Assembly: GCA_016182875.1 (NCBI GenBank)
Contig: JACPFQ010000001.1
Span: 20 to 64,019, forward strand
Direction of reading: 5' to 3'
DNA: 64,000 nucleotides
Origin: Candidatus Doudnabacteria bacterium
GTDB taxonomy: Bacteria; Patescibacteriota; Doudnabacteria; UBA920; O2-02-FULL-48-8
Positions within the stretch are counted from its first letter, which is position 1; each line of letters begins with the position of its first letter. This document shows positions 7,671 to 61,023 of the stretch, in pieces. The translations under genes were made by a program, and so were the position numbers. The notes under the pieces are model-generated. The model worked only from the letters and a program-made list of their open reading frames with translations. It was not told the origin of the DNA and ran no database searches.

Positions 7671-8200
7671 TGAAACGAAAGACAAAAAAGAAAATCAAGG
7701 CGTTGGGCAAATCGTTTGTGCTTGATCTTTTATTGATTGTGAAAGACTTGGCTGAGCTTTGGCCAGAGCCTTTCGAAAGCCCATATGCTTACCAGCGGCG
7801 GATTTCTAGCACCTATCCCCGATTTTCTCCCCAAAGGGTTAGTCGAAACTTATATTATTTGAAGAAACAAGGACTTATTGAGAAAAAGAAAGTGCGCAGC
7901 CGGTTTGTATATCAGTTGACGCTAAGCGGAAAACAAAAGCTTTTGATGTCGAAGATCAGTTTCAATAAGACTAATCCTAAAGATGGCACATCGTGCGTTA
8001 TTATCTATGATATTCCTAATGAAAAATACAAACATCGTAAGCTTTTGAGACGCTTTCTAATTAAAAACGGTTTTATGAACATTCAAAAGAGCGTGCTGAT
8101 AGGGCCGCAGTTTTTACCCAAGGAATTCCTTGAGCTTTTACATGAACTGGGTTTAAGACGAAATGTGACTATAATCAAGGGCAAGCTTTTATACTCCTAG
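7671..8200 (+). CDS. PaaX-like wHTH transcriptional regulator with Cas2-fold C-terminal domain (paralog 1)
   Basis: MKRKTKKKIK... wHTH-like YQLTLSGKQKL; C-terminal VIIYDIPNEKYKHRKLLRRFLIKNGFMNIQKSVLIG resembles Cas2/PaaX_C; paralog at 46178. Confidence 0.55.
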
Positions 8201-8250
8201 CACTATACTATATTTCGGCCGTACGGCAATTTTGTAGTATAGTTTTTTTG
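8201..8250. repeat. palindromic element CTATACTA-TATTTCG-GCCGTACGGC-AATTTTG-TAGTATAG plus T-run (terminator and second operator copy)
   Basis: nearly identical copy at 36186-36225 in opposite orientation. Confidence 0.6.
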
Positions 8251-8322
8251 GCGCAAAAAAAGTTATATCTGAGTATAACCTAGATATAACAAAAACCGCC
8301 CTTAAAGCGATTTTTTGGCTAA

Positions 8323-9156
8323 TTAAACAGCGACTGGTTGTTTCTGTTTCAGTGAGTCTAATCCTTTTTTTTGGATTTGATATCGATTTTCGCTTTTAAT
8401 AAAGTAGCCCTTTTTGCCGAAACTCTCTGTCAACGCTGACACCGCGTTCGTACTTATTTTTTCGAGTAGTTGGGTGGATATATATTCAATTTCTGTTGAT
8501 GTTAATGATGTTATATTATTAAGATATGCATATGCCAGTATCCATATAATCTTCATACCTTTTGAAGGCTGGTTATGAAAGTCTCCCAGTTCGTCTGAGT
8601 TAGGACTGACTATAAGATTTTTTACCTCCTCTCTAACGATTTTAATATTTGTACCCCTGGCGTTAGTTACTCGTCGTCTTTTTCGAGGGCTTTCTTCAGT
8701 TTCTTCTTTGAAGGAATTTTCTACTGATTTCAGCCCAGATTCCGAAAGGGCGTAGTCATCTGAGCCTGAATCAAGTTCGAAAACATACCCTAGCTGAATA
8801 GCAGTCTTAAAGTCTCGCGATAAGTTCTTCGGGGCTGGCTCACCAGATTTTTCAAATAACCTTTTAATGTCAACTGGTTTGAAGGATTCTAAATTTTGAC
8901 AATTTCTTAGATAGACAGCAAAAGCTGTGATCTTCTGGGCATTGGTTTTAGCGTTAGAATCGATGATAACTTGGCGAGGTCCCGATGAACTCAAGACCAA
9001 GTTAGGTTCTGACATTGCTGTTGCTGAAAGGTCCGATTTTTCTAAAACTTGGCGCTGCTCAGCATTTAAAAAAGCAATTATATGTGCGGCCTTTAATAAG
9101 TTTGTGTTTGTTTTGAAGGACAGGTCATCACCTTCTATTGTGACAAGTACGTTCAT
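8323..9156 (-). CDS. hypothetical protein (277 aa) in an AT-rich accessory segment
   Basis: ORF track; no recognisable motifs; lower G+C than flanks. Confidence 0.45.
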   Translation of the reverse strand: MNVLVTIEGDDLSFKTNTNLLKAAHIIAFLNAEQRQVLEKSDLSATAMSEPNLVLSSSGPRQVIIDSNAKTNAQKITAFAVYLRNCQNLESFKPVDIKRLFEKSGEPAPKNLSRDFKTAIQLGYVFELDSGSDDYALSESGLKSVENSFKEETEESPRKRRRVTNARGTNIKIVREEVKNLIVSPNSDELGDFHNQPSKGMKIIWILAYAYLNNITSLTSTEIEYISTQLLEKISTNAVSALTESFGKKGYFIKSENRYQIQKKGLDSLKQKQPVAV

Positions 9157-9405
9157 ATTTTCTCTCTATAGCGGTATTGAAGATACCGGCATTAATAATA
9201 TGCTATTAGCCTAATACTGTATGTCATTTTAGTCAACCTATTAAGCTAATGGTATAAAATGGCTTATTTAAAGCCTTTTACATCGTAAGTATATTTTCAT
9301 TGTAAAAGTTATCCACATGACTATAGGCCTGCAGTCAAGCCAGATAGTAGCCAGAACCATAATTACCTAACAAAAAACCACCTTTGAGGCGATTAATGTT
9401 AGCGC

Positions 9406-9780
9406 TCAGGCCTTGCTTATTACAGAAAGTATAATAAGAAGCCCAACAATGACGACTACAACAAGAAGTACTAATTGAACCTTGTTTTTAACTTGATTAT
9501 AGTTCGGAAATCTAGTTCTACCTAGATTATCAAGTTCTTTGGCAGCTTTTCCATACAAGTAAACTCTCATGAAGCCGAAGATAATGGAGAGAACACTAAT
9601 TACAAATAAGGGGATTACAACATTTAGAGTATATCCACTTCCGTGGACGCAGTCCAAAACAAATATATTTCGGGTTGGGCTATTGCAATCTACATTCAAA
9701 CTCAAGTACCACAAGTAGCCTGAGAGTAACAGAAGTATTACTCCGGCTATGATTAGTGAGCTTTTAAAATATCTGCTCAT
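9406..9780 (-). CDS. small membrane protein (3 TM)
   Basis: hydrophobic segments. Confidence 0.4.
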   Translation of the reverse strand: MSRYFKSSLIIAGVILLLLSGYLWYLSLNVDCNSPTRNIFVLDCVHGSGYTLNVVIPLFVISVLSIIFGFMRVYLYGKAAKELDNLGRTRFPNYNQVKNKVQLVLLVVVVIVGLLIILSVISKA

Positions 9781-11408
9781 TTTTTGTTTCTGACAGCAGC
9801 CTTCACGAATTCCCTAAACAGCGGTCCCGGATTAAGCGGTCTTGATTTGAATTCGGGGTGGAATTGGGTGCCGACGAAGAACGGATGGTCTTTGAGCTCG
9901 ATTATTTCCACGAGGAGGCCGTCGGGGGTGGTGCCGGAGAAGACGAAGCCTTTGGCTTCGAATTGTTTGCGGTATTTGTTGTTGAACTCATAGCGGTGGC
10001 GGTGGCGCTCGAAAATTCTTTTTTGGCCATAGGCCTTCAAGGCTTTACTGCTGTCCTTGAGGATACAGGGCCACGCGCCCAAGCGCATGGAAGCGCCATA
10101 ATCTTTTTTCAAAAGTTTTTTCTCCTGTTCGGGCATCAAGCCAATCACTGGATGTGGGGTTTTGGGGTCAACTTCAGTTGTATGGGCGCCTTTAAGACCC
10201 AAAACATTGCGGGCAAACTCGATAGTGGCCATCTGCATGCCGTAGCAGAGTCCCAGGTATGGGATTTTCTTGGTGCGGGCGTAGGTTATGGCTTTAATCA
10301 GTCCTTCGACTCCCCTTTTGCCAAAGCCCGGGGTAATCACGATGCCGTCATGGCCTTTCAAAACTTCTGCTCCGGATTTTTCCAGTTTCTCCGAATCAAT
10401 CCAGACCAGTTTCGGCTTGACCTTGTTGTGCCAGCTGGCGGCCTTGAGCGCCTCGATTATCGAAACATAGACGTCGGACAAATGATAATCGCCGGTGGCG
10501 AAGTATTTGCCGACTACGGCGATTTTGACTTCTTTTTTGGCGTTTTTGATATTACGGACTAATTTTTTCCACTCGGTCAAATCTTTTTTGGCAGCCGGCA
10601 GACCTAATTTTGCCAGGATTTTCTCGCCAAGCTTCTGATTCTGCATGACCAGCGGCACTTCGTATATGGACTGGACGTCGGGGGTGGAAATAACGTCGTC
10701 TTTTTTGACGTTGCAAAACAGCGCGATGCGCTCTTTTCTTTTGTCGTCAACTGCAAATTCGGAGCGGGCAATAATAAAATCAGGCTGAATCCCCATGGAG
10801 TTCATAAGCCTGACTGATTGCTGGACCGGTTTGGATTTCATCTCGCCGATGTTGCTGGGGATCGGAAGATACGCGACATGGACTTGAATGACGTCCTGCG
10901 GGTTTCTAAGCCTCATGATGCGGGAAGCTTCGAAGAAAATGGCGTTTTGGTATTCGCCGACCGTGCCGCCGAGCTCAATCATGACGATGTCGGACTTTTT
11001 GCCGGCAAGCTTGATGCGGTGGATGATTTGGTCCGTAATGTGCGGAATGGCCTCGACGTCTTCGCCGTCGTATTCAAACGCGCGCTCCCGGCGCAGGACC
11101 TCGGCGTAAACCTGGCCGGTAGTCACATAATTTACTTTGGATAAATTGACGTCGAGGAACCGCTCGTAATGCCCCAGGTCCTGGTCAGTCTCCATGCCGT
11201 CCTCAGTGACGAAGACTTCGCCGTGCTCCTGGGGCCGGATGGTGCCCGCGTCCTGGTTGAGGTACATGTCGATTTTGATCGGCGAGACGGCGTAGCCTCG
11301 GCTTTTTAAAATCGCCGCGATGGACGCGGTCGTGATTCCTTTGCCGAGGCCCGAAATGACCCCGCCGGAAACGAAAATGTATTTTGTGGCGCGCTTGTTC
11401 TTAGCCAT
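9777..11408 (-). CDS. pyrG: CTP synthase
   Basis: MAKNKRATKYIFVSGGVISGLGKGITTAS...; glutamine amidotransferase C-terminal LGLCYGMQ; start at the internal Met after 12 upstream codons. Confidence 0.93.
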   Translation of the reverse strand: MAKNKRATKYIFVSGGVISGLGKGITTASIAAILKSRGYAVSPIKIDMYLNQDAGTIRPQEHGEVFVTEDGMETDQDLGHYERFLDVNLSKVNYVTTGQVYAEVLRRERAFEYDGEDVEAIPHITDQIIHRIKLAGKKSDIVMIELGGTVGEYQNAIFFEASRIMRLRNPQDVIQVHVAYLPIPSNIGEMKSKPVQQSVRLMNSMGIQPDFIIARSEFAVDDKRKERIALFCNVKKDDVISTPDVQSIYEVPLVMQNQKLGEKILAKLGLPAAKKDLTEWKKLVRNIKNAKKEVKIAVVGKYFATGDYHLSDVYVSIIEALKAASWHNKVKPKLVWIDSEKLEKSGAEVLKGHDGIVITPGFGKRGVEGLIKAITYARTKKIPYLGLCYGMQMATIEFARNVLGLKGAHTTEVDPKTPHPVIGLMPEQEKKLLKKDYGASMRLGAWPCILKDSSKALKAYGQKRIFERHRHRYEFNNKYRKQFEAKGFVFSGTTPDGLLVEIIELKDHPFFVGTQFHPEFKSRPLNPGPLFREFVKAAVRNKK

Positions 11409-11912: not shown

Positions 11913-12836
11913 TTATATTCGCAAATAGCGTCTGATGGCAATACTGCTTGAGACCACCCCGATGATTATGCTTGCCAGGAGGTTAATGATGAATAGTTCC
12001 GCAAACAGGCCGCGCACCAGGCTGCCGCCGAAGTGTCGAAGGTCGAGGAATTCCTCGATTCGGGTGGAGGCCAGCGACAGCAACCCGAACATGACAATCG
12101 ACGTGATGGCAGTAGCTAAGATGGCGTAAATCAATCCCTCGATAAGAAACGGCCACCGGATATACCAGTTGGTCGCTCCGACCAGGCGCATGATTTCGAC
12201 TTCCTCGCGGCGGTTGTAGATGGCCAGGCGAATGGTGTTGAACATGACCATGATGGTTACGGCGATGAATACGACGGTAAGCAAGACTCCCAGCTGCCGA
12301 ATCAATTTGCTCAAAACCCCCAGCCGCTCGATTATCTTGCGGTTGTCCTTAATGCCGTCTTTTTCCTCGATGTACGGCCGAAACCGGTCGCTGCCCAGGA
12401 ACTTAACTATCGGTTCGTAGTTGGTGAGTTCGCTGGCTGTTATGGCGAACGAGTTTGGGAAGGGGTCGGTGTCGTTATCGAGTTCATCGAGCGCCCGAAT
12501 CCGGTCCGGCCGGTTTTGGTTGCGTTCGATGTAGCGGTCGCGCGCCTGCTCCTTGGAAGTAAAAATGATGGACTTCACGCCGGGAAAGGCTTCCAGGTCA
12601 GAGCGAATGACATCAATTTCCTGCTTAGTTGTGGAGTCCTTGAAATAAACCGAAACGCCGACGCGGTCCTTGGCGCTATCAAGCGAGAGGTCAGTGAGAT
12701 TGTAAAGCACTAAAACCGTGGAAATAATGAACAGCGTGATAACCATTATCGACGTCGCCGAAATCGACACGCCGATATTGCGCAGGAAGCTGGTGGTGCC
12801 GGATTTGACGAGTCGGTTGAATGTTACGAGATTCAT
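11913..12836 (-). CDS. ftsX: cell division permease FtsX
   Basis: FtsX architecture: N-terminal TM, periplasmic domain, three C-terminal TM helices. Confidence 0.8.
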
Positions 12837-12906
12837 GAGTTAGAATGTAGAATTTGGAATATAGAATATGGACGATTCCAAATTCCATATTCCACATTCC
12901 ATATTC

Positions 12907-13584
12907 CTATAAAACATACTTCCCCTTTTCCTGGTCGTAAACGATCTGCCCTTTCTCGACCGTGACCACGCGCTTCTTGACGCTGTTGACCAGATCCTTG
13001 GCATGGGTGGCCAGGATCACGGTCGTGCCGGCTTTGTTGATTTTCATAAGCAGCTGGATTATGTCCCAGGCATTAATGGAGTCAAGGTTGCCGGTTGGCT
13101 CGTCGGCCAAAAGCAATACTGGGTTGTGAGCCAGGGCGCGGGCAATAGCCACTCTCTGCCGCTCCCCGCCGGACATCTCGCTTGGGAAGGAATTAGCCTT
13201 ATCCGCAAGCCCCACCATCTCCAGAATTTTGGGCACTTCTTTTTTAATCGTATCAGCCGTGTCGCCGGAAACCTCAAGGGCGTAAGCGACGTTTTCGAAG
13301 GCCGTGCGATTAGGCAGGAGCTTGATGTCTTGGAAAACCACGCCGATTTTTCTTCTCAAATAAGGAATGTCCGCGCGCCTGATTTTCGCCACGTCAATGT
13401 CGTCGATGAGTATCCGGCCGGAATCAGGCCGCTCTTCGCCGATAATCAGGCGAATCAATGTCGATTTGCCGGCGCCGGATTGGCCGACTATGGAAATGAA
13501 TTCGCCTTTGTGAATCTGGAGGCTTAGGTCCTTGAGCGCCGTGACTTTGTTGTAGGTTTTAGTGACGTTATCGAATTTTATCAT
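12907..13584 (-). CDS. ftsE: cell division ATP-binding protein FtsE
   Basis: MIKFDNVTKTY..., Walker A GQSGAGKST, LSGGERQRVAIARAL, Walker B LLLADEPTGNLD. Confidence 0.9.
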   Translation of the reverse strand: MIKFDNVTKTYNKVTALKDLSLQIHKGEFISIVGQSGAGKSTLIRLIIGEERPDSGRILIDDIDVAKIRRADIPYLRRKIGVVFQDIKLLPNRTAFENVAYALEVSGDTADTIKKEVPKILEMVGLADKANSFPSEMSGGERQRVAIARALAHNPVLLLADEPTGNLDSINAWDIIQLLMKINKAGTTVILATHAKDLVNSVKKRVVTVEKGQIVYDQEKGKYVL

Positions 13585-25014: not shown

Positions 25015-27161
<2,147 letters not shown>

Positions 27162-27189: not shown

Positions 27190-28320
27190 CTACCTAATTT
27201 CGGCTGAAAATTGCTTTTTTGTCTCTTCAATAAGCTTATTCTGCAGCGGCTCGACTTCCCCGGATTTAAGAGTTCTGTCTATACTTCTATAAACAACGCG
27301 ATAAGTGTAGCTAATCTTGTCCTTGCCGAATTTTTTTTCATCCTCGTATTTATCCAGAAGTTCCACCTGCTCCACCAAATCGCCGCCGATGTCGCGGATC
27401 AGGTCGAAGTAATTATTCGGCACGAATGATTTATCGACAATAAAAGAGATATCTCTAGAGATAGGCGGAAATTTGCTGACTTCCTGATACTTTCGGCCAA
27501 GCTTAAGCTGTTTGACCACCCGTGGGTCTTGAGACCATAGCAGGCGGATGTCGGGCAGCTGCATGCTTACGATTGCCAACCGCTCCATGCCAAAGCCAAA
27601 TGCCCAACCGTGATACCCGGTTAGGCCGAAATTTGCCAGTACGCTCCTTCGCGCCATGCCCGAGCCCACCATCTCCACCCACTTATTATTAATTTCCGCT
27701 TCCATCTCAAAACTTGGGTCGGTATAAGGGAAGTTATGTTCATAAAATCGAATTTGGGTCTGGCCAAAAACGCTGCGCGCGACCTCGGCCAGTGCTTTTT
27801 TCAAATCGTCAGGCGTTATGTTGACTTTGTCGTCAGGACCGATGTAAAGCCCGCCGAACTGATGAAAAACATTCATGTGGTGGCGGTCAATCTCGTCTTT
27901 GCGGTAAACCTTGCCGTAGCAAATTACGCCAAGAGTTTCATTCTTCTCGATTCTCTTTTTGATTTCCGGGTGGTTCAAATAATAATACCAAAACACGGTG
28001 TCGTGGGTCCTAAGAACATGCTCATCGTCAATATAATAAGTGTCAGATTTGCTGCGGGCAGGATGCCCGGGCGGCATGTTGAACAAGTCAAACAGCACGT
28101 GAGTGGGTACGATTTCCGGAATTTTGATATCGTCGAAATCCTTAAAAGTCGGCGTCAACTTCACTCTTTGAATCAGTTCGGCAAGCGGGCTTGCCGGCGT
28201 GCGCGATAAATCCGGCATAGCCAAAAAGCGCTTGATTCTTTGCGCTTCAGCGTCCGTTCGTTTTTCAAGCTGCTGTTTAGCTTTCCTCTCTTCCTCGGAC
28301 TCTATGACAAAGAAGCTCAT
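27190..28320 (-). CDS. pheS: phenylalanine--tRNA ligase alpha-type catalytic subunit fused to a C-terminal FDX-ACB-like anticodon-binding domain (single-chain, mitochondrial-type architecture)
   Basis: GHPARSKSDTYYID, class II motif 3 GWAFGFGMERLAIV, then about 110 aa matching the FDX-ACB pattern RDISFIVD...GGDLVEQVELLDKYED...KISYTYRVVYRSIDRTLKSGEV. Confidence 0.75.
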   Translation of the reverse strand: MSFFVIESEEERKAKQQLEKRTDAEAQRIKRFLAMPDLSRTPASPLAELIQRVKLTPTFKDFDDIKIPEIVPTHVLFDLFNMPPGHPARSKSDTYYIDDEHVLRTHDTVFWYYYLNHPEIKKRIEKNETLGVICYGKVYRKDEIDRHHMNVFHQFGGLYIGPDDKVNITPDDLKKALAEVARSVFGQTQIRFYEHNFPYTDPSFEMEAEINNKWVEMVGSGMARRSVLANFGLTGYHGWAFGFGMERLAIVSMQLPDIRLLWSQDPRVVKQLKLGRKYQEVSKFPPISRDISFIVDKSFVPNNYFDLIRDIGGDLVEQVELLDKYEDEKKFGKDKISYTYRVVYRSIDRTLKSGEVEPLQNKLIEETKKQFSAEIR

Positions 28321-29288
28321 TTGACTTCAAGTGTTCCTTTGATCTGGGGGTTAAGCTGATCTTTGTATTCGAACTTGCCGCTTACCTCAGCGGTAAAACT
28401 GAAGGTTTGGTTTTGTTCAAGCTTGGGCGACTGAAAGCCGCCAAAGCTGCTGTTTGCCTCATATACGACCTGGTGGTTCACAGCGTCCTTATTCAGCCAA
28501 ACGACTGTATCGCCTTTGCTGACGACGACGGACTCGGGGCTGAATTTGTCATTTTCGATAAATACCGAAACTGTCTTCACATTCGGGTTAGCGGTCTTTT
28601 CGCGCAATGCGGCTAATGTCGTGATTGTCGGCTCATGCAGGCCAAAGGTTTTGGTGTCATTCTCGATTTGCCTGAGGCGGACATCAGTCATTTTTACTCC
28701 GGGCGTTATGGGGTCGTAGTTTTCAGCCACATCTCTGGCGTCGTTGTAATCTTTAATCACGGCAATTTCCCGGCGGTCAGTATATTTAAGCCCCGGCTCG
28801 GTTTTATAAATGTTGATTTCATCTCCATCCGCCAGCCCGTCCTCATCGCTGTCCGCCTTGTTGGGATTAGTTCCCTCCTTGAATTCGTTGTAGTTTATTA
28901 GCCCATCGCTGTCAGGGTCAGATTCATCGGAGCACCGGCTTTCGTCTGTGCAACTCTCGCTTCCGAAGTGCTGGTTCAGCCAAACTCTCGGCAGCTTGGT
29001 TTGCTTGACCGGCTCCTCATTTTTCCGGGCATTTGTTACGAGGTAATAAATAAGAATCCCCAAAAGCAGTATCAAAACCACGGCTCCGGAGGCCGCAACC
29101 CATTTCCTCATTTCTGGACTGAATTTAAATTTCTTCGGCCCGGGAGATTTGGGCGGCATCACGCCTGGAGGAACACTTGGCGGAATGCTCTTCGGCGCCT
29201 CGGCCCGAGGTTCGGGTCGTGGGGCGTTTGGGATGGAGGGCATTACCGTGAAATCAATATCCTGATTGCTTGGCGGTTGATTAGGCAT
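28317..29288 (-). CDS. membrane-anchored extracellular protein with Pro-rich region, TSP3-like Ca-binding Asp repeats and a C-terminal cupredoxin-like beta domain
   Basis: TM helix AASGAVVLILLLGILIYYLV; repeats DESDPDSDGLINYNEF / NKADSDEDGLADGDE. Confidence 0.4.
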   Translation of the reverse strand: MPNQPPSNQDIDFTVMPSIPNAPRPEPRAEAPKSIPPSVPPGVMPPKSPGPKKFKFSPEMRKWVAASGAVVLILLLGILIYYLVTNARKNEEPVKQTKLPRVWLNQHFGSESCTDESRCSDESDPDSDGLINYNEFKEGTNPNKADSDEDGLADGDEINIYKTEPGLKYTDRREIAVIKDYNDARDVAENYDPITPGVKMTDVRLRQIENDTKTFGLHEPTITTLAALREKTANPNVKTVSVFIENDKFSPESVVVSKGDTVVWLNKDAVNHQVVYEANSSFGGFQSPKLEQNQTFSFTAEVSGKFEYKDQLNPQIKGTLEVK

Positions 29289-29291
29289 GAG

Positions 29292-29669
29292 TTACGGCTT
29301 AGCGTAAAGAAAATACGATTCAAGAAAAATAAACGCGAGAACTAAAATTGCGGCATTGAGGAGGTTAAACAGGCCGGATGACTGCAGGATTAACGAGCCT
29401 GCGATTATGACCGAAAACCAAACCGCTTGACGAAGCGAGACGAAGAAGTAGTTCTCCGCCCGCTCTCTTTGCCCGAACATCTGTCTAAGTTGGAACCCGG
29501 CAAGAGCCGCAGTGCTCATGATTAGAACTAATAAATCCAGGTAAAAAAGAACAACATTGAACCGAGCTCCATAAGGGTCAAGGTATCGGATTACCAGAAC
29601 CAAGGAAATCAGCGACAGAACTGAACCTGTTCCGAGCAAAAAACTGTAGCCTCGAAGCTTGTTTCTCAT
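29292..29669 (-). CDS. small 4-TM membrane protein
   Basis: hydrophobic profile. Confidence 0.35.
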   Translation of the reverse strand: MRNKLRGYSFLLGTGSVLSLISLVLVIRYLDPYGARFNVVLFYLDLLVLIMSTAALAGFQLRQMFGQRERAENYFFVSLRQAVWFSVIIAGSLILQSSGLFNLLNAAILVLAFIFLESYFLYAKP

Positions 29670-29674
29670 TTAAA

Positions 29675-32641
29675 TTATACTAAAAAATGACGGAACTTAC
29701 AATCATGGGGCTTCCGCGCATCCAGTTCGTAGAATGAATCGCTTTTGCAGGTCTCAATAATCTCTTTGATCGTCTTGAGTAGATGATTTTTGACCTGCTC
29801 AATTTCGGCCTCGCTTCCGACAAACTCCTGGCTGTCCCTGAGGCTGGCCAAATACCAATACCTAAGCGACTTAACCTTCTGCTTGAACTGCTCCTGCGCA
29901 GCCCACTGGTATATCAATAGCTGGTTTTTATCCTCAGCGGTCAATTTTTCCTTAACCTGGCCGGTTTTGTAGTCAATAATCTCGATTGAGCCGTCGATAT
30001 TTTGGTCCGCGCGGTCAATTTTTCCAGTAAACTTATAATCTCCCAGTTTGAGCTTGAATTTTTGCTCAAGGAACAGGATTTTCTTCGGGTTTTCGGAGAA
30101 TCTTTTGTGAAAAATCTCGAGCATTTCCAGTCCCCGCCTGCGGCCCCTTTCCTTCTCGATTTTATCGGGGTACCAGTCATCCACCCAAACCTCCTGGTAG
30201 AACTTTTTTAGCACTTCAAAGCCTGGGACGCGAAGTCCTGCATTACTCTTGCCGAACAAATCAGCCTGCTTCTCACTGTTAAGCTGCTGATAATGCTCAA
30301 GAAACTTCTGCAAGGCTTTATGCACCGTATCGCCTAGCGATAAATATGGACTGCCGGGCAGGGGGATTTGGTAAATATAGCGAAGCTTATACTCCAGCGG
30401 GCAACTCAAAAAGCTGGAAATCTGCGAAAACGAAAAGGTTTCGGGAACCGAATATTTAGGAGCTGGCTTAAGCAGGGGCGGCTGTTTGGCAAAGAACACC
30501 TGTCCCATGGGCTTGGCAGTGGCCGGCTTGGCAGCCATGCCTAATTCCACTAAGAAGCGGGAGGGCTTCTTGTGCATTGCCCCTCCATAATCATTCCCCC
30601 AGGTCAGATAAAGGTACTGTTTGGCGCGGGTAACTGCCACGTAGAACAGCCTTCTTTCCTCCATGAGGTGGACGTCTCCTTCGGGAAGTATTTCCTTAAT
30701 CAAGCTGGCCGGCATTTCTATCTGCTCCTTTCGCTCCCTGGACGGAAACCGCTGATCGACCAGATTAACCACAAACACGCATTTGAATTCCAGTCCCTTG
30801 GCAGAATGAATGGTCATAACCCTGACTGCCTCAGGCCCCAAATCCGGGTTAAAGGCAAGCTCGCCCTGATCCCCGGCTTCCTGCTCCAGCTTGATGTGAT
30901 TTAGGAACGCCTTAAGCGATTTGTCCGTATTTTCCTGCTCAAATGTTTGGGATTTGCGGTAAAACTGCTCAAGCAGGCTTCTGTTTTCCGTATTCTGCAT
31001 GGAATCCTCAAGCAGGGACTTGGTGAGGCCAAGGTCGGTTAGAATTTTTACGATCAGCTCGGAAACCGGCGTTTCTCTGGCCAGGCTGGTATGCTTATTG
31101 ACCAGCTCAACAAGCTTGTCGATTTTTTTGTAGGATTCGGAAGAGAGCCGAACCAGGCTTCTGGCTTCCTTCAAGGCCTCGAATATTGTCAGCGCTTTTT
31201 TCCTTGCCATCTGCGACAGGCTAACCAGGTCCAAATCGCTGATGCGGAAAATATCCATGTTGAGTATGCGGAAAACATTCTCGCTTTCATGCCTATTATC
31301 CAAAATATTGAAGTATGAGAGTAAATTCAGGATAAACGGCTTTTTATACAGGCCGCGGTTGGCCACAAAGATGTAGGGGACTCCCCGCCTGTTCAATTCA
31401 AGCACAAACGGCTCGGCTGAATCATTGGCGCGGACCAGAATCGCGAAATCATTCCAATTAAGCCCTGCCTTTGAATTAAGTTCAATAATCTCATCAACAA
31501 CCCGGTTGACTTCCTCGTGAATCGACTGGCCGTGCAGCACCTCGATCGATCCTCTTTCAGCATTATGGCCGGCCAAACGCTTTACAATTTTAAGCTTATG
31601 TTCGAGCCGCTCAGGATTGTTTTGCTGGATAAAGCCGTAAGCCAGATCCAAGATAGCTTGAGTAGACCGGTAATTGTCAACCAGGGTTATTTCGTTCGTG
31701 TTTTTGTAGTCATCTTTGAATTTAAGGATGTTGGATATCGAAGCGCCGCGGAATTTATAGATTGATTGGTCGTCGTCCCCAACCACGGTCAGGTTATTCA
31801 TGGGCACTGCCAAGAGCTTAACCATTTCGTATTGGGATAGGTCAGTATCCTGGAACTCATCAACGAGGATGTATTTGAACTGCTTCTGGTAGTGACCCAA
31901 AATTTTCGGTCTGGTCCGAAAAAGCTTTATCGTGTAATTAATTAAGTCCCCGAAGTCTAAATAGGAATTATCCAAAAGCAGTTTTTGATATTTATGGTAA
32001 GCATTTGCAACTTCTGTGATTCGGCTAATCTCAAGCTCCTCTTCACTGTTCGCATCTTTTCCCTTTACCCTTTTCCCTTTACCCTTTTCCACGCGGTCTT
32101 TGTTGAGCTTCAAACCCTCAGCATAAGCTAAGTATTCCTCGGGTGTTATTCCCTCGCCTTTGGCTTTTTGAAAATGTTTTACCAGCGAATGAATGAACTT
32201 ATTCGGGTTGCCGAACGGCTTGTAATAGTCCAGGTCGAAATCATGCAAATGCTTTTTTATCAGCAGCCAGGCAGAGGTTTCATTAAGCACCCGGAAGTCG
32301 CCCGGGAGTCCGATGTCCAGCGCATGTTGGATTAGGATTTTTTGAGCGAAGGCATGAAAAGTCGAAATATTGACTTCGACGTACCCCAGCGGAAGCAGCT
32401 CGTCGACGCGCTCTTCCATCTCCGTTGCCGCCTTTTCGGTAAAGGTCAAAGCAAGAATTTCATCCGGCCTTGCCAGTTTTTGCTCAAGCAGCCAGGCGAT
32501 TCTCCTGGTAAGCACAGTGGTTTTGCCGGTTCCAGCGCCCGCAATAATCAAAAGCGGTCCCTGGCCAAAGGTCACGGACTTAACTTGCTGTTGGTTCAGA
32601 CCCTCCAGGACCTGAGATTTGGTCTTGACTGTTTGCCTCAT
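29675..32641 (-). CDS. UvrD/PcrA-type helicase fused to a C-terminal PD-(D/E)xK (RecB/Cas4-like) nuclease
   Basis: Walker A AGAGTGKTTVLT, UvrD motifs (VDEFQDT, TIHSAKGLEF), C-terminal IIDYKTG...YQWAAQE and a Cys cluster. Confidence 0.8.
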   Translation of the reverse strand: MRQTVKTKSQVLEGLNQQQVKSVTFGQGPLLIIAGAGTGKTTVLTRRIAWLLEQKLARPDEILALTFTEKAATEMEERVDELLPLGYVEVNISTFHAFAQKILIQHALDIGLPGDFRVLNETSAWLLIKKHLHDFDLDYYKPFGNPNKFIHSLVKHFQKAKGEGITPEEYLAYAEGLKLNKDRVEKGKGKRVKGKDANSEEELEISRITEVANAYHKYQKLLLDNSYLDFGDLINYTIKLFRTRPKILGHYQKQFKYILVDEFQDTDLSQYEMVKLLAVPMNNLTVVGDDDQSIYKFRGASISNILKFKDDYKNTNEITLVDNYRSTQAILDLAYGFIQQNNPERLEHKLKIVKRLAGHNAERGSIEVLHGQSIHEEVNRVVDEIIELNSKAGLNWNDFAILVRANDSAEPFVLELNRRGVPYIFVANRGLYKKPFILNLLSYFNILDNRHESENVFRILNMDIFRISDLDLVSLSQMARKKALTIFEALKEARSLVRLSSESYKKIDKLVELVNKHTSLARETPVSELIVKILTDLGLTKSLLEDSMQNTENRSLLEQFYRKSQTFEQENTDKSLKAFLNHIKLEQEAGDQGELAFNPDLGPEAVRVMTIHSAKGLEFKCVFVVNLVDQRFPSRERKEQIEMPASLIKEILPEGDVHLMEERRLFYVAVTRAKQYLYLTWGNDYGGAMHKKPSRFLVELGMAAKPATAKPMGQVFFAKQPPLLKPAPKYSVPETFSFSQISSFLSCPLEYKLRYIYQIPLPGSPYLSLGDTVHKALQKFLEHYQQLNSEKQADLFGKSNAGLRVPGFEVLKKFYQEVWVDDWYPDKIEKERGRRRGLEMLEIFHKRFSENPKKILFLEQKFKLKLGDYKFTGKIDRADQNIDGSIEIIDYKTGQVKEKLTAEDKNQLLIYQWAAQEQFKQKVKSLRYWYLASLRDSQEFVGSEAEIEQVKNHLLKTIKEIIETCKSDSFYELDARKPHDCKFRHFLV

Positions 32642-35487: not shown

Positions 35488-35562
35488 TCGCGGGGTAGAG
35501 AAATGGCATCTCGCAAGGCTCATAACCTTGAGATTGGCGGTTCGAGTCCGCCCCCCGCAACC
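35488..35562 (+). tRNA. tRNA with CAT anticodon (Met; C1 x A72 mismatch suggests initiator-type)
   Basis: acceptor CGCGGGG/CCCCGCA, D-arm GAGA-AATGGCA-TCTC, anticodon stem CAAGG/CCTTG with loop CTCATAA, T-arm GGCGG-TTCGAGT-CCGCC, ACCA end. Confidence 0.75.
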
Positions 35563-35845
35563 AAGAAAGAGAGTTCGCAATTGTTAGCTCGGCATAGATT
35601 GAAAACTACCGGTCGTCAAAATCTGCTGATTTTGCGACCTGCGTTCTCGCGCCGTCGCGCTGCGAAAGCTAGTTTTACAATCCATGCCTCGCACAATTGC
35701 TCACTGAGAAAATAAGGAATAATACAGAAAAATTGCCACGGCTTTTTAATTTAACCATGAGGCAATTTTTCTGAGAGGAGCAGCATGTAGACCGTAGCGC
35801 AATTTGCTTCAGCAAATTCGCGAAGTGTCTACCCGACTGCGACGA

Positions 35846-35921
35846 GGCTGGGTAGCTCAGTTGGCAGAGCGTGGGACTCATAAGCCCGAGGTCGTGGGTT
35901 CGATCCCCACCCCAGCCACCA
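35846..35921 (+). tRNA. tRNA with CAT anticodon (Met elongator or Ile2/lysidine-type; ambiguous)
   Basis: acceptor GGCTGGG/CCCAGCC, D-arm GCTC-AGTTGGCA-GAGC, anticodon loop CTCATAA, T-arm GTGGG-TTCGATC-CCCAC, ACCA. Confidence 0.75.
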
Positions 35922-36053
35922 GAGAACATTCTGAGTTACAGCAAAAATTAGGTGCGCAGGACGAAGTCCGAGCACGAATTTTTGCTAAGAGGAGCAGCAT
36001 GTAAACCGAAGCAGCCGTCATGACGGATGCGAAAGTTTACCCGACTGCGACGA

Positions 36054-36132
36054 GGGTCCGTGGTGTAGCCTGGTCTAACACGTCTCCCTGTCACGGAGAA
36101 GATCGAGGGTTCAAATCCCTTCGGACCCGCCA
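36054..36132 (+). tRNA. tRNA-Asp (anticodon GTC)
   Basis: acceptor GGGTCCG/CGGACCC, anticodon stem TCTCC/GGAGA with loop CTGTCAC, T-loop TTCAAAT, GCCA end. Confidence 0.75.
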
Positions 36133-36185: not shown

Positions 36186-36225
36186 CTATACTATGAAATT
36201 GCCGTACGGCCGTTTTGTAGTATAG
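36186..36225. repeat. third copy of the GCCGTACGGC palindromic element (CTATACTA-TGAAATT-GCCGTACGGC-CGTTTTG-TAGTATAG), overlapping the cca stop codon
   Basis: near-identical to 8201-8250 in inverse orientation. Confidence 0.6.
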
Positions 36226-37588
36226 CCTTTAGGTCTTTAACGTTTTTTATTTTGCCCAAAACTATTTGAGTCTTAACTTCAGATATCTTCTGGCCGAGAG
36301 CGCGGCCGGGTTTGAGATCTGAAAGCTTCATGATCAGCTCTCCCTTGGCAAGCTTATCAATAAGCGTTTTTTTATTATTAATTTGCCTTAAAAACCGTGA
36401 GCCGATCTCGAGCACCCTTACGCTCCTTCTTCTATACCATTCATTCGCTGAGGTCATGATATTGCCCTCCAAATCAGCGCGCCACAAATCCAGGAGCAAA
36501 TTGAAATTCTCGTTAAATGCGTACATTGCCTGTTCCTCCGGGGTCATTTTCAGAAATGACCGCTTGCCGTGATGCTCGATCAGCCAGGCTACCGCTTCCT
36601 TATCGTTTCTGGAAAAGCGAAGTCTTCGCGCGAAGCCCAAAAAAATCTCCCTCGAAGCCTGTTCGTGCCCTTTAGTCGAGATGACCTGGCCCTCGTCCTT
36701 TATAGCTTCTTGGCCCACCATCGGCTTGCCGATGTCGTGAAGAAGGGCCGCATAAAAAAGGTTTATATTGCGGACCTTAACCCCGCTTAAAACCAAAAGC
36801 GCGTGCTCAAATTGCGAGCCCTCCAGGTGATAGTGTTTCGACTTATGATAAAAGTTCTTAAGCGGCTCAAATTCAGGGATTAAGAATTTCAGCAGATCCA
36901 CCTGGTCCAAAAGCCTCATTCCCTGCACTCTATTTTTGGAAAGTAAAATCTTATCCAGTTCGGATTTGACTCTTTCACTGGGGATTCCTTGGATATATTT
37001 TGCCCGGGTTTTGATGGCGGCAAAACTATTCTTTTCAAGCTTAAACCCAAACTGAGCGCTAAAACGAACGGCGCGAAGCATTCTGAGATGGTCCTCATCA
37101 ATTCTTTTTTTAGGATCACCCACGAACCGAATCAGTCTGGCCTTCATATCCCTCAAGCCCCCGACTGGGTCTAGCAGTTCTCTTTTTATAGGATTAAAAT
37201 AAAGAGCATTGATTGTAAAATCGCGGCGTTTGGCGTCCTCTCTATAATCTTTAATAAAATTAACTTTGTCAGGATGCCGCTTGTCGCTATATTTGCCCTC
37301 TGACCGAAAGGTAGTAATCTCAATGGGCACACTTTTAACGATCGTTAAAAGTGTGCCCCACTGTTTGCCCACGCGCTTAACTGGCAAATCAAGTTCTCTC
37401 AAAACCTTTTCAACTTGCTCGGGACGTGCAGAAGTGGTTACATCTAAATTGTCGGATTTGCGCCTCAGCAAAAAATCGCGAACAAAACCCCCGACAAAAA
37501 AAGTCTGGTGTCCTTCCCTATGCAAAAATCGGACAATTCTCATGCCCGATTTTTCCAGTGAGGTTCTTGGTTTCCAATTCAAATGCAT
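36191..37588 (-). CDS. cca: CCA-adding enzyme / tRNA nucleotidyltransferase with HD domain
   Basis: polymerase-beta-type NTase head GGFVRDFLL...DVT; HD motif LLHDIGKP. Confidence 0.82.
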   Translation of the reverse strand: MHLNWKPRTSLEKSGMRIVRFLHREGHQTFFVGGFVRDFLLRRKSDNLDVTTSARPEQVEKVLRELDLPVKRVGKQWGTLLTIVKSVPIEITTFRSEGKYSDKRHPDKVNFIKDYREDAKRRDFTINALYFNPIKRELLDPVGGLRDMKARLIRFVGDPKKRIDEDHLRMLRAVRFSAQFGFKLEKNSFAAIKTRAKYIQGIPSERVKSELDKILLSKNRVQGMRLLDQVDLLKFLIPEFEPLKNFYHKSKHYHLEGSQFEHALLVLSGVKVRNINLFYAALLHDIGKPMVGQEAIKDEGQVISTKGHEQASREIFLGFARRLRFSRNDKEAVAWLIEHHGKRSFLKMTPEEQAMYAFNENFNLLLDLWRADLEGNIMTSANEWYRRRSVRVLEIGSRFLRQINNKKTLIDKLAKGELIMKLSDLKPGRALGQKISEVKTQIVLGKIKNVKDLKAILQNGRTAIS

Positions 37589-60364: not shown

Positions 60365-61023
60365 TGCCTGTCGGTGAGACGATTCTAATGTCTCACCGCC
60401 GGACTGATTTGGACGAAAGAATCCGTGTCTTCAAGACGAGGAGCGGCATGTCCACTCAGTCCGTCCTTTTCTCAAGCATAGACAATCGCATTTGCGAGGA
60501 CCCCGGACTCCGATCCGGGGAACGAAGCAATCTAATCTTGAGAAAGGGTGCGATGTTGCGATTGTTCTTGAATGGACGAAGGGACATGCGCACCCTCGTG
60601 GCGGACGAAAATATTTATGTCCTTTACTGGACGAATGAGGGAGTGTCCGCCACGAAATTTTAAACCGGAGGAATCAAGTTTGGTGAGACGAGGTGCGAGG
60701 TGTCCGCTAGGAGGACGAACTTAGTGGTGTCTCACCACCGGACTGAAAGACGAATCCAAGGATGTCTCTTGTAGACGATGGGTCGTATGTCATTTCAGTC
60801 CGGCCTTTTCCAAATGATTCATCTACGAAATAGAACTCCCCTCTCCTGGAGAGGAGAGGGGTCGGGGGTGAGGTGGATTATTCATTTGGAAAGGGTACGA
60901 GAGTTTCATTGTCCATATAGGACGAACCACCGACTGTACCCTTTTGGCGGACGATTGATAGCATGTCTGAAGTAGACGAGCATGTCTTTGTCCGCTACCA
61001 CGTTCCTTTTCAAGGAGTGCGCC
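60365..61023 (+). ncRNA. candidate structured non-coding RNA array (about 8 stem-loop modules with conserved stems and variable loops) upstream of the recombinase gene
   Basis: stems GGTGAGAC/GTCTCACC, GTGGCGGAC/GTCCGCCAC, AGGGTRCG/CGYACCCT, CCGGACTGAAA/TTTCAGTCCGG; inner hairpins GTCY-N5-8-RGACGA; promoter upstream. Confidence 0.5.

What the first reader, a model, noticed from the sequence alone, without database searches (positions are those of the whole stretch)
27190..28320. PheRS alpha-type catalytic core fused to an FDX-ACB-like anticodon-binding domain, a single-chain (mitochondrial-type) architecture
Bacterial PheS normally ends shortly after class II motif 3 (GWAFGFGMERLAIV here). 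This ORF continues for about 110 aa. The extension matches the FDX-ACB fold pattern normally found at the C-terminus of the PheT beta subunit and in monomeric mitochondrial PheRS: RDISFIVD...GGDLVEQVELLDKYED...KISYTYRVVYRSIDRTLKSGEV. No pheT lies next to it, where bacteria normally have it.
Basis: partly seen in the sequence, partly recalled or inferred. Interest (0 to 1): 0.6.

Follow-up and report, generated by a model that had tools for sequence, protein, structure and literature searches.

The report
Single-chain mitochondrial-type PheRS in CPR bacterium
This ultra-small (CPR/Patescibacteria) bacterium encodes a one-piece phenylalanyl-tRNA synthetase built like the mitochondrial enzyme, sitting exactly where its relatives keep the normal two-subunit genes, so a form thought unique to organelles appears to be the working enzyme of a large bacterial group.

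Summary
Window 27190-28320 (-) is an intact 376-aa gene with a PheS-type class II core (PF01409, E 9e-53) fused to an FDX-ACB domain (PF03147, E 2e-23). Its predicted fold matches human mitochondrial PheRS over the whole chain (TM 0.73).

It is identical to MBI2355611.1, a "hypothetical protein" of Candidatus Doudnabacteria. More than 6,000 database clusters and at least 357 species genomes carry the same architecture, all of them Patescibacteria among the named ones. It scores below the curated cut-offs of pheS_mito, pheS and SrmL.

The key new result is positional. Related Patescibacteria carry helicase-pheS-pheT-gyrB-secE-nusG. This genome carries helicase-...-single-chain gene-gyrB-secE-nusG. 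Relatives whose GyrB is 84-89% identical differ only in which PheRS type fills that slot. No pheT or second pheS was found in the window or within 10 kb in 80 related genomes.

Both halves resemble other single-chain PheRS, including organellar ones, more than they resemble canonical subunits. This suggests one fusion event.

The amino-acid pocket is rewired (Q->W111, T->D107, E->G156, F->Y199).

I conclude it is most likely the cell's only PheRS, monomeric and without editing. Whole-genome absence of pheT and enzymatic activity are inferred, not shown.

The parts
27190..28320 (-). Complete single-chain PheRS gene (376 codons plus stop); identical to NCBI MBI2355611.1 'hypothetical protein HYV13_00170', Candidatus Doudnabacteria
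   Evidence: ORF list; 100% match P0001
28189..28320 (-). N-terminal region, residues 1-44: two short helices (9-20, 24-34). It is not the long coiled-coil Phe_tRNA-synt_N domain of bacterial PheS.
   Evidence: Secondary structure of the model; no PF02912 hit, whereas Kerfeldbacteria PheS has one
27505..28188 (-). Class II PheS-type catalytic module, residues 45-272, with motif 2 (R140, FHQ 152-154) and motif 3 (GWAFGFGMER 238-247, A240 = E. coli A294, R247)
   Evidence: PF01409 E 8.7e-53; residue conservation
27724..28002 (-). Stretch holding the four family-specific pocket substitutions: D107 (28000-28002), W111 (27988-27990), G156 (27853-27855), Y199 (27724-27726). Other PheRS have T, Q, E/D and F at these positions.
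   Evidence: Column statistics over 171 sequences and 121 family members
27478..27504 (-). Linker or hinge, residues 273-281, between the catalytic module and the anticodon-binding domain
   Evidence: Gap between the Pfam domains; non-helix, non-strand stretch in the model
27193..27477 (-). FDX-ACB (B8-type) anticodon-binding domain, residues 282-376, with RDISF (289-293), LLDKY (321-325), SYTYR (337-341) and RTL (349-351)
   Evidence: PF03147 E 1.8e-23; TIGR00472 pheT_bact C-terminus 692-798; beta-alpha-beta-beta-alpha fold in the model
25059..27134 (-). gyrB, immediately downstream (55-nt gap). It is the conserved downstream neighbour of the PheRS slot.
   Evidence: ORF, Pfam in L001; adjacent in 61 of 80 related loci; downstream of pheT in L264, L266, L268, L269, L225, L169
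28317..29288 (-). Upstream membrane/cupredoxin-like gene whose stop overlaps the PheRS start (ATGA), suggesting co-transcription and translational coupling. It is context only, not part of the enzyme.
29675..32641 (-). UvrD/PDDEXK-type helicase-nuclease (988 aa), the conserved upstream boundary of the PheRS slot
   Evidence: Pfam in L001; the same gene lies upstream of pheS in L264, L266, L268, L269, L225
23302..23955 (-). nusG, part of the conserved gyrB-secE-nusG-L11-L1 block that anchors the synteny
   Evidence: Pfam; the same order in L264 and L266

Best explanation
The gene encodes a single-chain phenylalanyl-tRNA synthetase of the mitochondrial type, and it is most likely the only PheRS of this Doudnabacteria cell. 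Residues 45-272 form the class IIc catalytic module. This module activates phenylalanine with ATP and transfers it to tRNA-Phe. Residues 282-376 form a ferredoxin-fold domain, normally the C-terminal B8 domain of the beta subunit. It reads the GAA anticodon and is joined to the core by a short hinge. By analogy with human mitochondrial PheRS, the hinge must swing from the closed form (the form predicted here) to an open form to accept tRNA. There is no B3/B4 editing domain, so mischarged Tyr-tRNA-Phe cannot be proofread in cis. In evolution, the gene displaced the two-gene pheS-pheT operon at its ancestral position between a UvrD/PDDEXK helicase and gyrB. It descends from the same core+B8 fusion as the organellar enzymes, not from a recent fusion of this lineage's own pheS and pheT. 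Shown: the architecture, the fold, conservation of the catalytic residues, the family distribution and the positional replacement. Inferred: monomeric state, Phe-tRNA-Phe activity, absence of pheT from the rest of the genome, and hinge motion.
For: Architecture and fold.

Catalytic residues kept: motif-2 R140, motif-3 R247, H106, Q154, F197, A240, G242 and G244.

Anticodon-domain signature kept: RD..., D323-x-Y325, S337 and RTL.

Family size and taxonomy: more than 6,165 clusters. 357 species genomes matched and the best 80 are almost all labelled Patescibacteria lineages (one is labelled Verrucomicrobiia).

One copy per locus, next to gyrB in 61 of 80 loci.

Positional replacement:
- Kerfeldbacteria and other Patescibacteria carry helicase-(DciA)-pheS-pheT-gyrB-secE-nusG-L11-L1.
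- Paceibacterota carry helicase-pheS-pheT-gyrB.
- The window carries helicase-...-single-chain-gyrB-secE-nusG-...-L1.
- L225 (pheS-pheT) has a GyrB 84-89% identical to those of L043, L054, L051 and L067. In those four loci the same helicase-gyrB interval holds the single-chain gene.

No PheT or second PheS in the window or in 1.24 Mb of flanks of 80 loci, even with Patescibacteria probes.

No MAG name or contig length is shared between PheT-bearing and single-chain-bearing contigs in the lists seen.

Both halves are closer to other single-chain PheRS than to canonical subunits.
Against: The rest of this genome could not be read: the window is 64 kb of a 151 kb contig of a MAG. A pheS-pheT pair elsewhere is therefore not excluded. 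Unlinked genes appear in only 0-2 of the 80 flanks, so their silence on pheT is statistically weak.

The protein scores below every curated cut-off: pheS_mito 222 against 258, SrmL 220 against 300, pheS 172 against 237.

Two residues that contact the substrate in other PheRS are changed. The Glu of FHQxE is Gly156, and the conserved Gln is Trp111. The amino-acid specificity is therefore not proven.

No biochemical data exist. The deep branches of my neighbour-joining tree are unresolved (bootstrap 0-42).
Confidence: 0.72

Rival explanations
1. It is an accessory PheS paralogue with a non-translational or unknown ligase function, like the NCBIfam 'PheS-related mystery ligase SrmL'. A canonical pheS-pheT pair elsewhere in the genome would then do the housekeeping job.
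For: NF051887 SrmL matches almost end to end (profile positions 33-344 of 349) at 220 bits. Single-chain PheS+FDX-ACB proteins also occur in bacteria that presumably have normal PheRS, for example an Oligoflexia MAG. The substrate pocket is altered. The whole genome was not available.
Against: The score is below the SrmL cut-off of 300. The gene sits in the pheS-pheT slot of a conserved housekeeping block, and close relatives carry either pheST or this gene there, never both within 10 kb. The family is very widespread, one copy per locus, and has about 130 invariant residues, including all catalytic and anticodon-domain signatures. A relocated pheST in every one of these genomes is less parsimonious.
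Confidence: 0.15
2. It is the catalytic subunit of a re-partitioned multi-subunit PheRS. It would work with separately encoded partners, such as the free-standing tRNA_bind (B2-like) protein or an unrecognised remnant of the beta subunit.
For: In 20 of 80 related loci a conserved 115-190 aa ORF directly upstream is a PF01588 tRNA_bind domain. It aligns to PheT residues about 1-150 at 35-45% identity.
Against: That ORF is absent from this window (no hit at E<=10) and from 60 of the 80 loci, so it cannot be obligatory. The protein lacks the PheS N-terminal coiled coil. The structurally equivalent human enzyme works as a monomer (PMC3275996).
Confidence: 0.1
3. It is an artefact: a chimeric ORF created by mis-assembly or by a deletion within a pheS-pheT operon in a metagenome bin, or a decaying pseudogene.
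For: The source is a metagenome-assembled genome, and the gene lies where pheS-pheT lies in relatives.
Against: The identical protein is found on five independent contigs from four sequencing runs. Thousands of homologues share the same length and architecture. The ORF is intact and strongly conserved. Neither half is especially similar to Patescibacteria PheS or PheT (27-34% and 26-31% identity), so it is not a recent deletion product.
Confidence: 0.01

Closest known systems
Mitochondrial (organellar) monomeric PheRS: human FARS2 (PDB 3CMQ, 3TUP), yeast MSF1; TIGR00469 pheS_mito; 'PheRS-M' of AARS Online
   Same: The two-module architecture is the same: a PheS-type catalytic module plus a C-terminal B8/FDX-ACB domain, with no beta subunit and no editing domain. 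FARS2 is the best sequence match among solved structures (E 3e-56) and the best fold match over the whole chain (TM 0.73, rmsd about 4 A, closed state). The FDX-ACB domain is closer to organellar and other single-chain versions than to PheT.
   Different: This gene is encoded in a free bacterial (Patescibacteria) genome, inside a housekeeping operon block. It is only 30-40% identical to organellar enzymes and scores below the TIGR00469 cut-off (222 against 258). At 376 aa it is shorter than the roughly 405-415 aa solved human chains. It has an insertion after residue 115. Its pocket has W111, D107, G156 and Y199 where organellar enzymes have Q, T, E and F.
Bacterial heterotetrameric PheRS (PheS alpha, TIGR00468, plus PheT beta, TIGR00472)
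   Same: The catalytic core is homologous to PheS (E 6e-30 to E. coli PheS). The C-terminal domain is homologous to the last domain of PheT. The gene occupies the genomic position of pheS-pheT in related Patescibacteria.
   Different: It is one chain instead of two. It has no N-terminal coiled coil and no B1, B2, B3/B4 (editing), B5 or B6/B7 domains. It scores below the TIGR00468 cut-off. Canonical Patescibacteria PheS cluster with other bacterial PheS, not with this protein.
NCBIfam NF051887 'PheS-related mystery ligase SrmL'
   Same: It is a bacterial single-chain protein of about 349 aa. Its profile aligns across both the core and the FDX-ACB part of this protein (query residues 62-365) at 220 bits.
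   Different: The score is well below the family cut-off of 300 bits. No paper on SrmL was found, so its function and gene context are unknown to me. The window protein is longer and sits in a translation and replication housekeeping block.
Reduced canonical PheRS of Paceibacterota/Nomurabacteria (alpha 244-263 aa, core only; beta about 600 aa without B2)
   Same: It occurs in the same phylum and in the same genomic slot (helicase-...-gyrB), and follows the same trend of domain loss.
   Different: It is still two subunits and keeps the B3/B4 editing, B5 and B6/B7 domains. Its sequences are only 27-34% (alpha) and about 30% (B8) identical to the window protein.

Membership tests
Monomeric mitochondrial-type PheRS (TIGR00469 / PheRS-M) | A single polypeptide with a PheS-type class II catalytic module directly followed by an FDX-ACB (B8) domain, and no other beta-subunit domains | tested here: met
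   PF01409 at residues 43-271 plus PF03147 at 282-376, with nothing else
Monomeric mitochondrial-type PheRS (TIGR00469 / PheRS-M) | Whole-protein score at or above the curated TIGR00469 cut-off (258.35 bits) | tested here: not met
   222.3 bits. It is the top-scoring NCBIfam model but below the cut-off.
Monomeric mitochondrial-type PheRS (TIGR00469 / PheRS-M) | Three-dimensional similarity to human mitochondrial PheRS over both modules | tested here: met
   AlphaFold model pLDDT 88.7. Foldseek ranks 1-7 are all HsmtPheRS entries, TM 0.72-0.74 for the closed form.
Monomeric mitochondrial-type PheRS (TIGR00469 / PheRS-M) | Conserved class II motif 2 and motif 3 catalytic residues and the Phe-pocket Ala (E. 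coli A294) | tested here: met
   R140, R247, F197, A240, G242 and G244 are invariant. The Glu of FHQxE and the pocket Gln are replaced (G156, W111).
Monomeric mitochondrial-type PheRS (TIGR00469 / PheRS-M) | Active as a monomer; aminoacylates tRNA-Phe with Phe; no editing | not testable with these tools
   Needs biochemistry. Only the absence of a B3/B4 domain is shown.
Monomeric mitochondrial-type PheRS (TIGR00469 / PheRS-M) | Nuclear-encoded eukaryotic protein targeted to an organelle | tested here: not met
   The gene lies in a Candidatus Doudnabacteria contig between gyrB and a helicase. Homologues are in Patescibacteria genomes.
Bacterial PheRS alpha subunit PheS (TIGR00468) | Score at or above 237.45 bits | tested here: not met
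   172.2 bits
Bacterial PheRS alpha subunit PheS (TIGR00468) | N-terminal coiled-coil domain (PF02912) | tested here: not met
   No PF02912 hit. Kerfeldbacteria PheS has one.
Bacterial PheRS alpha subunit PheS (TIGR00468) | A partner pheT encoded beside it or elsewhere in the genome | tested here: inconclusive
   None in the 64 kb window or within 10 kb in 80 related genomes.
PheS-related mystery ligase SrmL (NF051887) | Score at or above 300 bits | tested here: not met
   220.1 bits. The best score among 107 distant representatives was E 2e-81.
FDX-ACB domain (PF03147) | Score at or above the gathering threshold (31.1 bits), full-length match | tested here: met
   83.2 bits, profile positions 1-94 of 94

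The most novel reading that the evidence does not exclude
The single-chain PheRS of Patescibacteria and the mitochondrial/plastid PheRS of eukaryotes descend from one and the same core+B8 fusion, which arose in bacteria. On this reading the organellar enzyme, long described as a eukaryotic invention and 'the only known monomeric class II catalytic module', was inherited from a bacterial donor. A whole bacterial radiation would then run translation with an editing-less 376-aa PheRS. Its rewired pocket (W111, D107, G156, Y199) removes the two side chains that bind the meta-hydroxyl of m-Tyr in the human enzyme, and so could substitute for proofreading.
Probability: 0.3. Interest if true: 0.85.

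Novelty: new variant of a known kind. Interest (0 to 1): 0.68.

Why it matters
Textbook and review accounts list three forms of PheRS and treat the monomeric form as unique to organelles (PMC3275996; AARS Online, PMC11580382). Here the same architecture appears to be the housekeeping PheRS of a very large bacterial group. NCBI's pipeline does not recognise it and labels it "hypothetical", and it falls below all curated family cut-offs.

If confirmed, five things follow:
- A fourth natural setting for PheRS, and one of the smallest bacterial aminoacyl-tRNA synthetases.
- Clean natural "swap" pairs, in which close relatives differ only in PheRS type at one locus. These can be used to study how an essential two-subunit enzyme is displaced.
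- The origin of mitochondrial PheRS becomes directly testable with bacterial outgroups.
- A question about how cells without PheRS editing avoid Tyr and m-Tyr misincorporation, with four specific pocket substitutions to test.
- A practical correction for genome annotation and for completeness marker sets (pheS and pheT models) applied to Patescibacteria.

Tried and rejected
1. Direct search for pheT in the same genome was not possible. The tools give at most 10 kb around a gene, and the NCBI contig of this MAG is not in the contig index.

2. Absence of pheT in 1.24 Mb of flanks of 80 related loci cannot be used as statistical evidence. Control genes from the window that are not linked to the locus appear in only 0-2 of the 80 flanks.

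3. rplT/rpmI synteny as a route to pheS: no rplT in any fetched locus (supplied the E. coli probes).

4. Literature: eight full-text searches found no description of a bacterial or CPR single-chain PheRS or of SrmL. The two PheRS-M sources I read (AARS Online; Douglas et al.) do not mention a bacterial form.

5. Recent in-situ fusion of this lineage's own pheS and pheT is rejected. Neither half is especially similar to Patescibacteria PheS or PheT, and canonical Patescibacteria PheS cluster with other bacterial PheS.

6. Recent horizontal sweep, suggested by the protein being more conserved than GyrB at long range, is not supported as stated. At short range it diverges faster than GyrB and then saturates at about 30% difference. 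This fits a rigid set of invariant sites plus freely varying ones.

7. Deep phylogeny: my neighbour-joining tree with bootstrap leaves the relation between the CPR clade, other bacterial single-chain forms and eukaryotic enzymes unresolved. No maximum-likelihood software was available.

8. Viral contigs scanned with a PheT motif gave only ordinary bacterial PheT in prophage flanks.
Full report
**1. The observation**

- Pfam finds two domains and nothing else of note: PF01409, the PheS-type class II core (residues 43-271, E 8.7e-53), and PF03147, FDX-ACB (residues 282-376, E 1.8e-23, full-length match).
- The NCBIfam pheT_bact model aligns its last 107 positions to residues 269-376.
- The start codon overlaps the stop of the upstream gene (ATGA). 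gyrB starts 55 nt downstream.

**2. What the protein looks like**

- Among solved structures, the best sequence matches are the human mitochondrial PheRS entries (E about 3e-56). Bacterial PheS alpha chains follow at E about 6e-30 and match the core only. PheT beta chains match the last 100 residues only.
- An AlphaFold model built on 25 family members is confident (mean pLDDT 88.7, pTM 0.76).
- Foldseek against the PDB ranks seven human mitochondrial PheRS entries first. The closed form (3CMQ and related entries) gives TM 0.72-0.74 and rmsd about 4 A over about 385 columns. The tRNA-bound open form 3TUP gives TM 0.58. Bacterial PheS matches only the core (TMq about 0.53).
- The N-terminus is a short two-helix element, not the PF02912 coiled coil of bacterial PheS.

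**3. Who has it**

- The protein is identical to MBI2355611.1, "hypothetical protein HYV13_00170", from a Candidatus Doudnabacteria MAG. It is found on five independent contigs.
- A word-indexed search returned 6,165 clusters at E<=1e-10. The best 120 all have about 375 aa, the same two domains and 71-77% identity. The named ones come from Doudna-, Giovannoni-, Yanofsky- and Liptonbacteria, Paceibacterota and Minisyncoccia. NCBI calls them "hypothetical" and JGI calls them "PheRS alpha chain".
- A scan of one genome per species found relatives in 357 genomes. The best 80 are nearly all labelled as Patescibacteria lineages; one is labelled Verrucomicrobiia.
- In a 50%-identity representative library the whole family collapses to about one cluster.
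- The next relatives (40-44% identity) include an Oligoflexia MAG protein and proteins of 448-456 aa.
- The gene for one of those (P0131) has 13 in-frame TGA codons. One falls at an invariant Gly, which indicates genetic code 25, i.e. Gracilibacteria or Absconditabacteria.
- Eukaryotic organellar enzymes (fern, choanoflagellate) appear at 36-41% identity.
- The protein is below the curated cut-offs of every NCBIfam model: pheS_mito 222/258, SrmL "PheS-related mystery ligase" 220/300, pheS 172/237.

**4. Is there a canonical PheRS as well?**

Direct evidence:
- The window has no pheT and no second pheS. This was tested with Pfam on the large ORFs, with E. coli probes and with Patescibacteria probes.
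- The same holds for 10 kb either side of the gene in 80 related genomes.
- Control genes show that such flanks sample too little of each genome for this absence alone to be informative.

Positional evidence, which is decisive:
- A motif scan of metagenomes for PheT recovered loci in which canonical pheS-pheT lies immediately upstream of a gyrB 50-61% identical to the window's GyrB.
- Using those PheT as queries, Kerfeldbacteria and other Patescibacteria contigs (1.1 Mb, 680 kb) show the order UvrD/PDDEXK helicase, DciA, pheS, pheT, gyrB, secE, nusG, L11, L1.
- Paceibacterota and Nomurabacteria contigs show helicase, pheS (244-263 aa, core only), pheT (about 600 aa, no B2), gyrB.
- The window shows helicase (29675-32641), two small genes, the single-chain gene, gyrB, secE, nusG, then L1 and thymidylate synthase.
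- gyrB is adjacent to the single-chain gene in 61 of 80 related loci.
- The sharpest comparison is L225 (helicase-pheS-pheT-gyrB). Its GyrB is 84-89% identical to the GyrB of L043, L054, L051 and L067, and its helicase is 49-72% identical to theirs. In those four loci the interval between the same two genes holds the single-chain gene, inverted, and no pheST.
- In the lists I could see, no MAG name or contig length is shared between PheT-bearing and single-chain-bearing contigs.

I conclude that the single-chain gene has displaced pheS-pheT at the ancestral locus and is most likely the only PheRS of these cells. This is a strong inference, not a whole-genome demonstration.

**5. Where the gene came from**

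- It is not a recent fusion of this lineage's own pheS and pheT. The core is 27-34% identical to Patescibacteria PheS, no closer than to other bacterial PheS.
- The FDX-ACB domain scores 40-53 bits against Patescibacteria PheT, a median of 45 bits against other PheT, and a median of 63 bits against other single-chain proteins, eukaryotic ones included.
- In a neighbour-joining tree of 171 catalytic cores, all single-chain proteins fall on one side and all canonical PheS, including the four Patescibacteria ones, on the other. The support for that split is weak (bootstrap 21).
- The CPR family groups with the code-25 and Oligoflexia proteins (bootstrap 75). The deeper order is unresolved.
- The simplest reading is one ancient core+B8 fusion shared by bacterial and organellar single-chain PheRS. 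The direction of transfer remains open.
- Within the family, divergence outruns GyrB at short range and then saturates near 30%. About 130 positions are invariant in the 25-member alignment. This fits a small enzyme in which most surfaces are functional.

**6. Active site**

- The class II catalytic residues are conserved: motif-2 Arg (R140), motif-3 Arg (R247), H106, Q154, F197, the specificity-determining Ala (A240 = E. coli A294) and the pocket glycines.
- Four pocket positions differ in all 120 close family members:
  - W111, where 54 of 58 canonical PheS and most other single-chain forms have Gln.
  - D107, in place of Thr.
  - G156, in place of the Glu/Asp of FHQxE.
  - Y199, in place of Phe.
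- Intermediate states track the tree: P0125 and P0130 have T, D, F; P0127, P0131 and P0121 have T/I, D, Y; the main family has D, G, Y. This suggests that the carboxylate moved from position 156 to position 107 (my inference).
- According to PMC3275996, Tyr at the position of T. thermophilus Phe-alpha-260 is normal in eukaryotic cytosolic PheRS.
- The same review states that Gln124 and Glu159 of the human mitochondrial enzyme hydrogen-bond the meta-hydroxyl of the toxic analogue m-Tyr. By alignment these correspond to W111 and G156 here.
- Loss of both side chains in an enzyme without an editing domain could therefore be an adaptation for intrinsic discrimination. This is speculative and testable.
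- In the FDX-ACB domain the signature residues are conserved: RD (289-290), D323-x-Y325, S337 and RTL. From my memory of the T. thermophilus complex, the equivalents of D323, Y325 and S337 contact G34 of the anticodon.

**7. Mechanism proposed**

- The enzyme is a monomeric class IIc synthetase. The core makes Phe-AMP and transfers Phe to tRNA-Phe.
- The hinged FDX-ACB domain binds the GAA anticodon after swinging out of the closed state predicted here. This is shown for the human enzyme (PMC3275996) and inferred here.
- There is no cis editing.

Rival explanations (details and probabilities are in the structured fields):
- An accessory "mystery ligase" paralogue.
- A subunit of a re-partitioned enzyme that works with the free tRNA_bind protein encoded upstream in 20 of 80 relatives. 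That protein is absent from this window.
- An assembly artefact, effectively excluded.

**8. Comparison with what is known, and novelty**

- The architecture is that of mitochondrial PheRS. Reviews describe that enzyme as the only monomeric class II catalytic module and as a replacement specific to organelles (PMC3275996). The aaRS catalogues list it as "mitochondrial-like" (PMC11580382, PMC10810186).
- I found no paper describing a bacterial or CPR single-chain PheRS. One paper notes only that many CPR PheRS-beta lack the B2 domain (PMC5370408).
- The sequences are in public databases but unnamed, and they fail the curated family thresholds.
- I therefore class this as a new variant of a known kind: a bacterial, lineage-wide, active-site-rewired version of the monomeric PheRS that replaces pheST in situ.

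**9. Confidence and interest**

| Claim | Confidence |
|---|---|
| Architecture | about 0.97 |
| It is a working PheRS | about 0.8 |
| It is the sole PheRS of the genome | about 0.7 |

Interest is 0.68. A specialist would be surprised to see the "organelle-only" form as the housekeeping enzyme of a major bacterial radiation. The finding also makes the origin of FARS2 and editing-free fidelity directly testable. Activity and whole-genome exclusivity remain to be shown.

Noticed in passing
Related loci L005-L009, L011-L014, L017, L022-L024, L030, L032, L034, L037, L040, L063, L078 (e.g. L017:9585-10004); absent from the window: A conserved 115-190 aa ORF lies directly upstream of the single-chain PheRS gene on the same strand. 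It is a free-standing PF01588 tRNA_bind (B2-like OB) domain that aligns to residues about 1-150 of PheT at 35-45% identity. It may be a retained 5' remnant of the displaced pheT or a trans-acting tRNA-binding helper. L040 has the cupredoxin-like gene, this ORF and then the PheRS gene, so the window's lineage seems to have lost it.
   Followed up: partly
L225:2276-5100, L268:9253-11806, L269:9205-11809: Paceibacterota and Nomurabacteria that keep the two-subunit enzyme have a strongly reduced version. The alpha subunit is 244-263 aa (catalytic core only, no N-terminal coiled coil) and the beta subunit is about 600 aa without the B2 domain. This beta family has at least 4,601 database clusters.
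   Followed up: partly
L270:9463-10833 (protein P0131): A 456-aa single-chain PheRS relative is encoded with 13 in-frame TGA codons. The stored translation has Trp at an invariant Gly of motif 3, so the organism probably reads UGA as Gly (code 25, Gracilibacteria/Absconditabacteria). The gene lies beside an ATP synthase operon rather than gyrB.
   Followed up: partly
L059 and L081 (contigs JACQLT010000001.1 and JACQLT010000003.1 of one MAG): One Parcubacteria MAG (NC_groundwater_1210) carries the single-chain gene on two different contigs. This could be a true duplication, strain heterogeneity or a binning artefact.
   Followed up: no
L264:9602-9964 and L266:9001-9999: In Patescibacteria with canonical PheRS, unrelated genes are inserted between pheS and pheT (a 23S_rRNA_IVP/bAvd-like four-helix protein in one, a Methyltransf_33 gene in the other). 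L266 also has a Na_Ca_ex gene between pheT and gyrB at 12359-13339. The slot seems prone to insertions.
   Followed up: no
window 28317-29288 (-) and 29292-29669 (-): The two genes between the helicase and the PheRS gene encode a proline-rich, single-pass membrane protein with TSP3-like repeats and a C-terminal cupredoxin-like domain, and a 125-aa multi-pass membrane protein with no Pfam hit. The first is conserved in 20 of the 80 related loci. Function unknown.
   Followed up: no
window 35489-36132 (+): A tight cluster of two tRNA-Met(CAT) genes and a tRNA-Asp gene lies next to a CCA-adding enzyme gene (36191-37588). No tRNA-Phe gene is in the window.
   Followed up: no
window 8001-10000: G+C content drops locally to 0.38, against 0.45-0.55 elsewhere in the window.
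   Followed up: no
window 60982-62283 (+) and 61105-62364 (-): Two long ORFs (433 and 419 aa) overlap almost completely on opposite strands in the most G+C-rich part of the window. Which one is real was not determined.
   Followed up: no
43 loci that hold both gyrB and the single-chain gene: Pairwise divergence of the single-chain PheRS exceeds that of GyrB between close relatives but plateaus near 30% when GyrB reaches 40-45%. The correlation between the two is weak (r = 0.45).
   Followed up: partly
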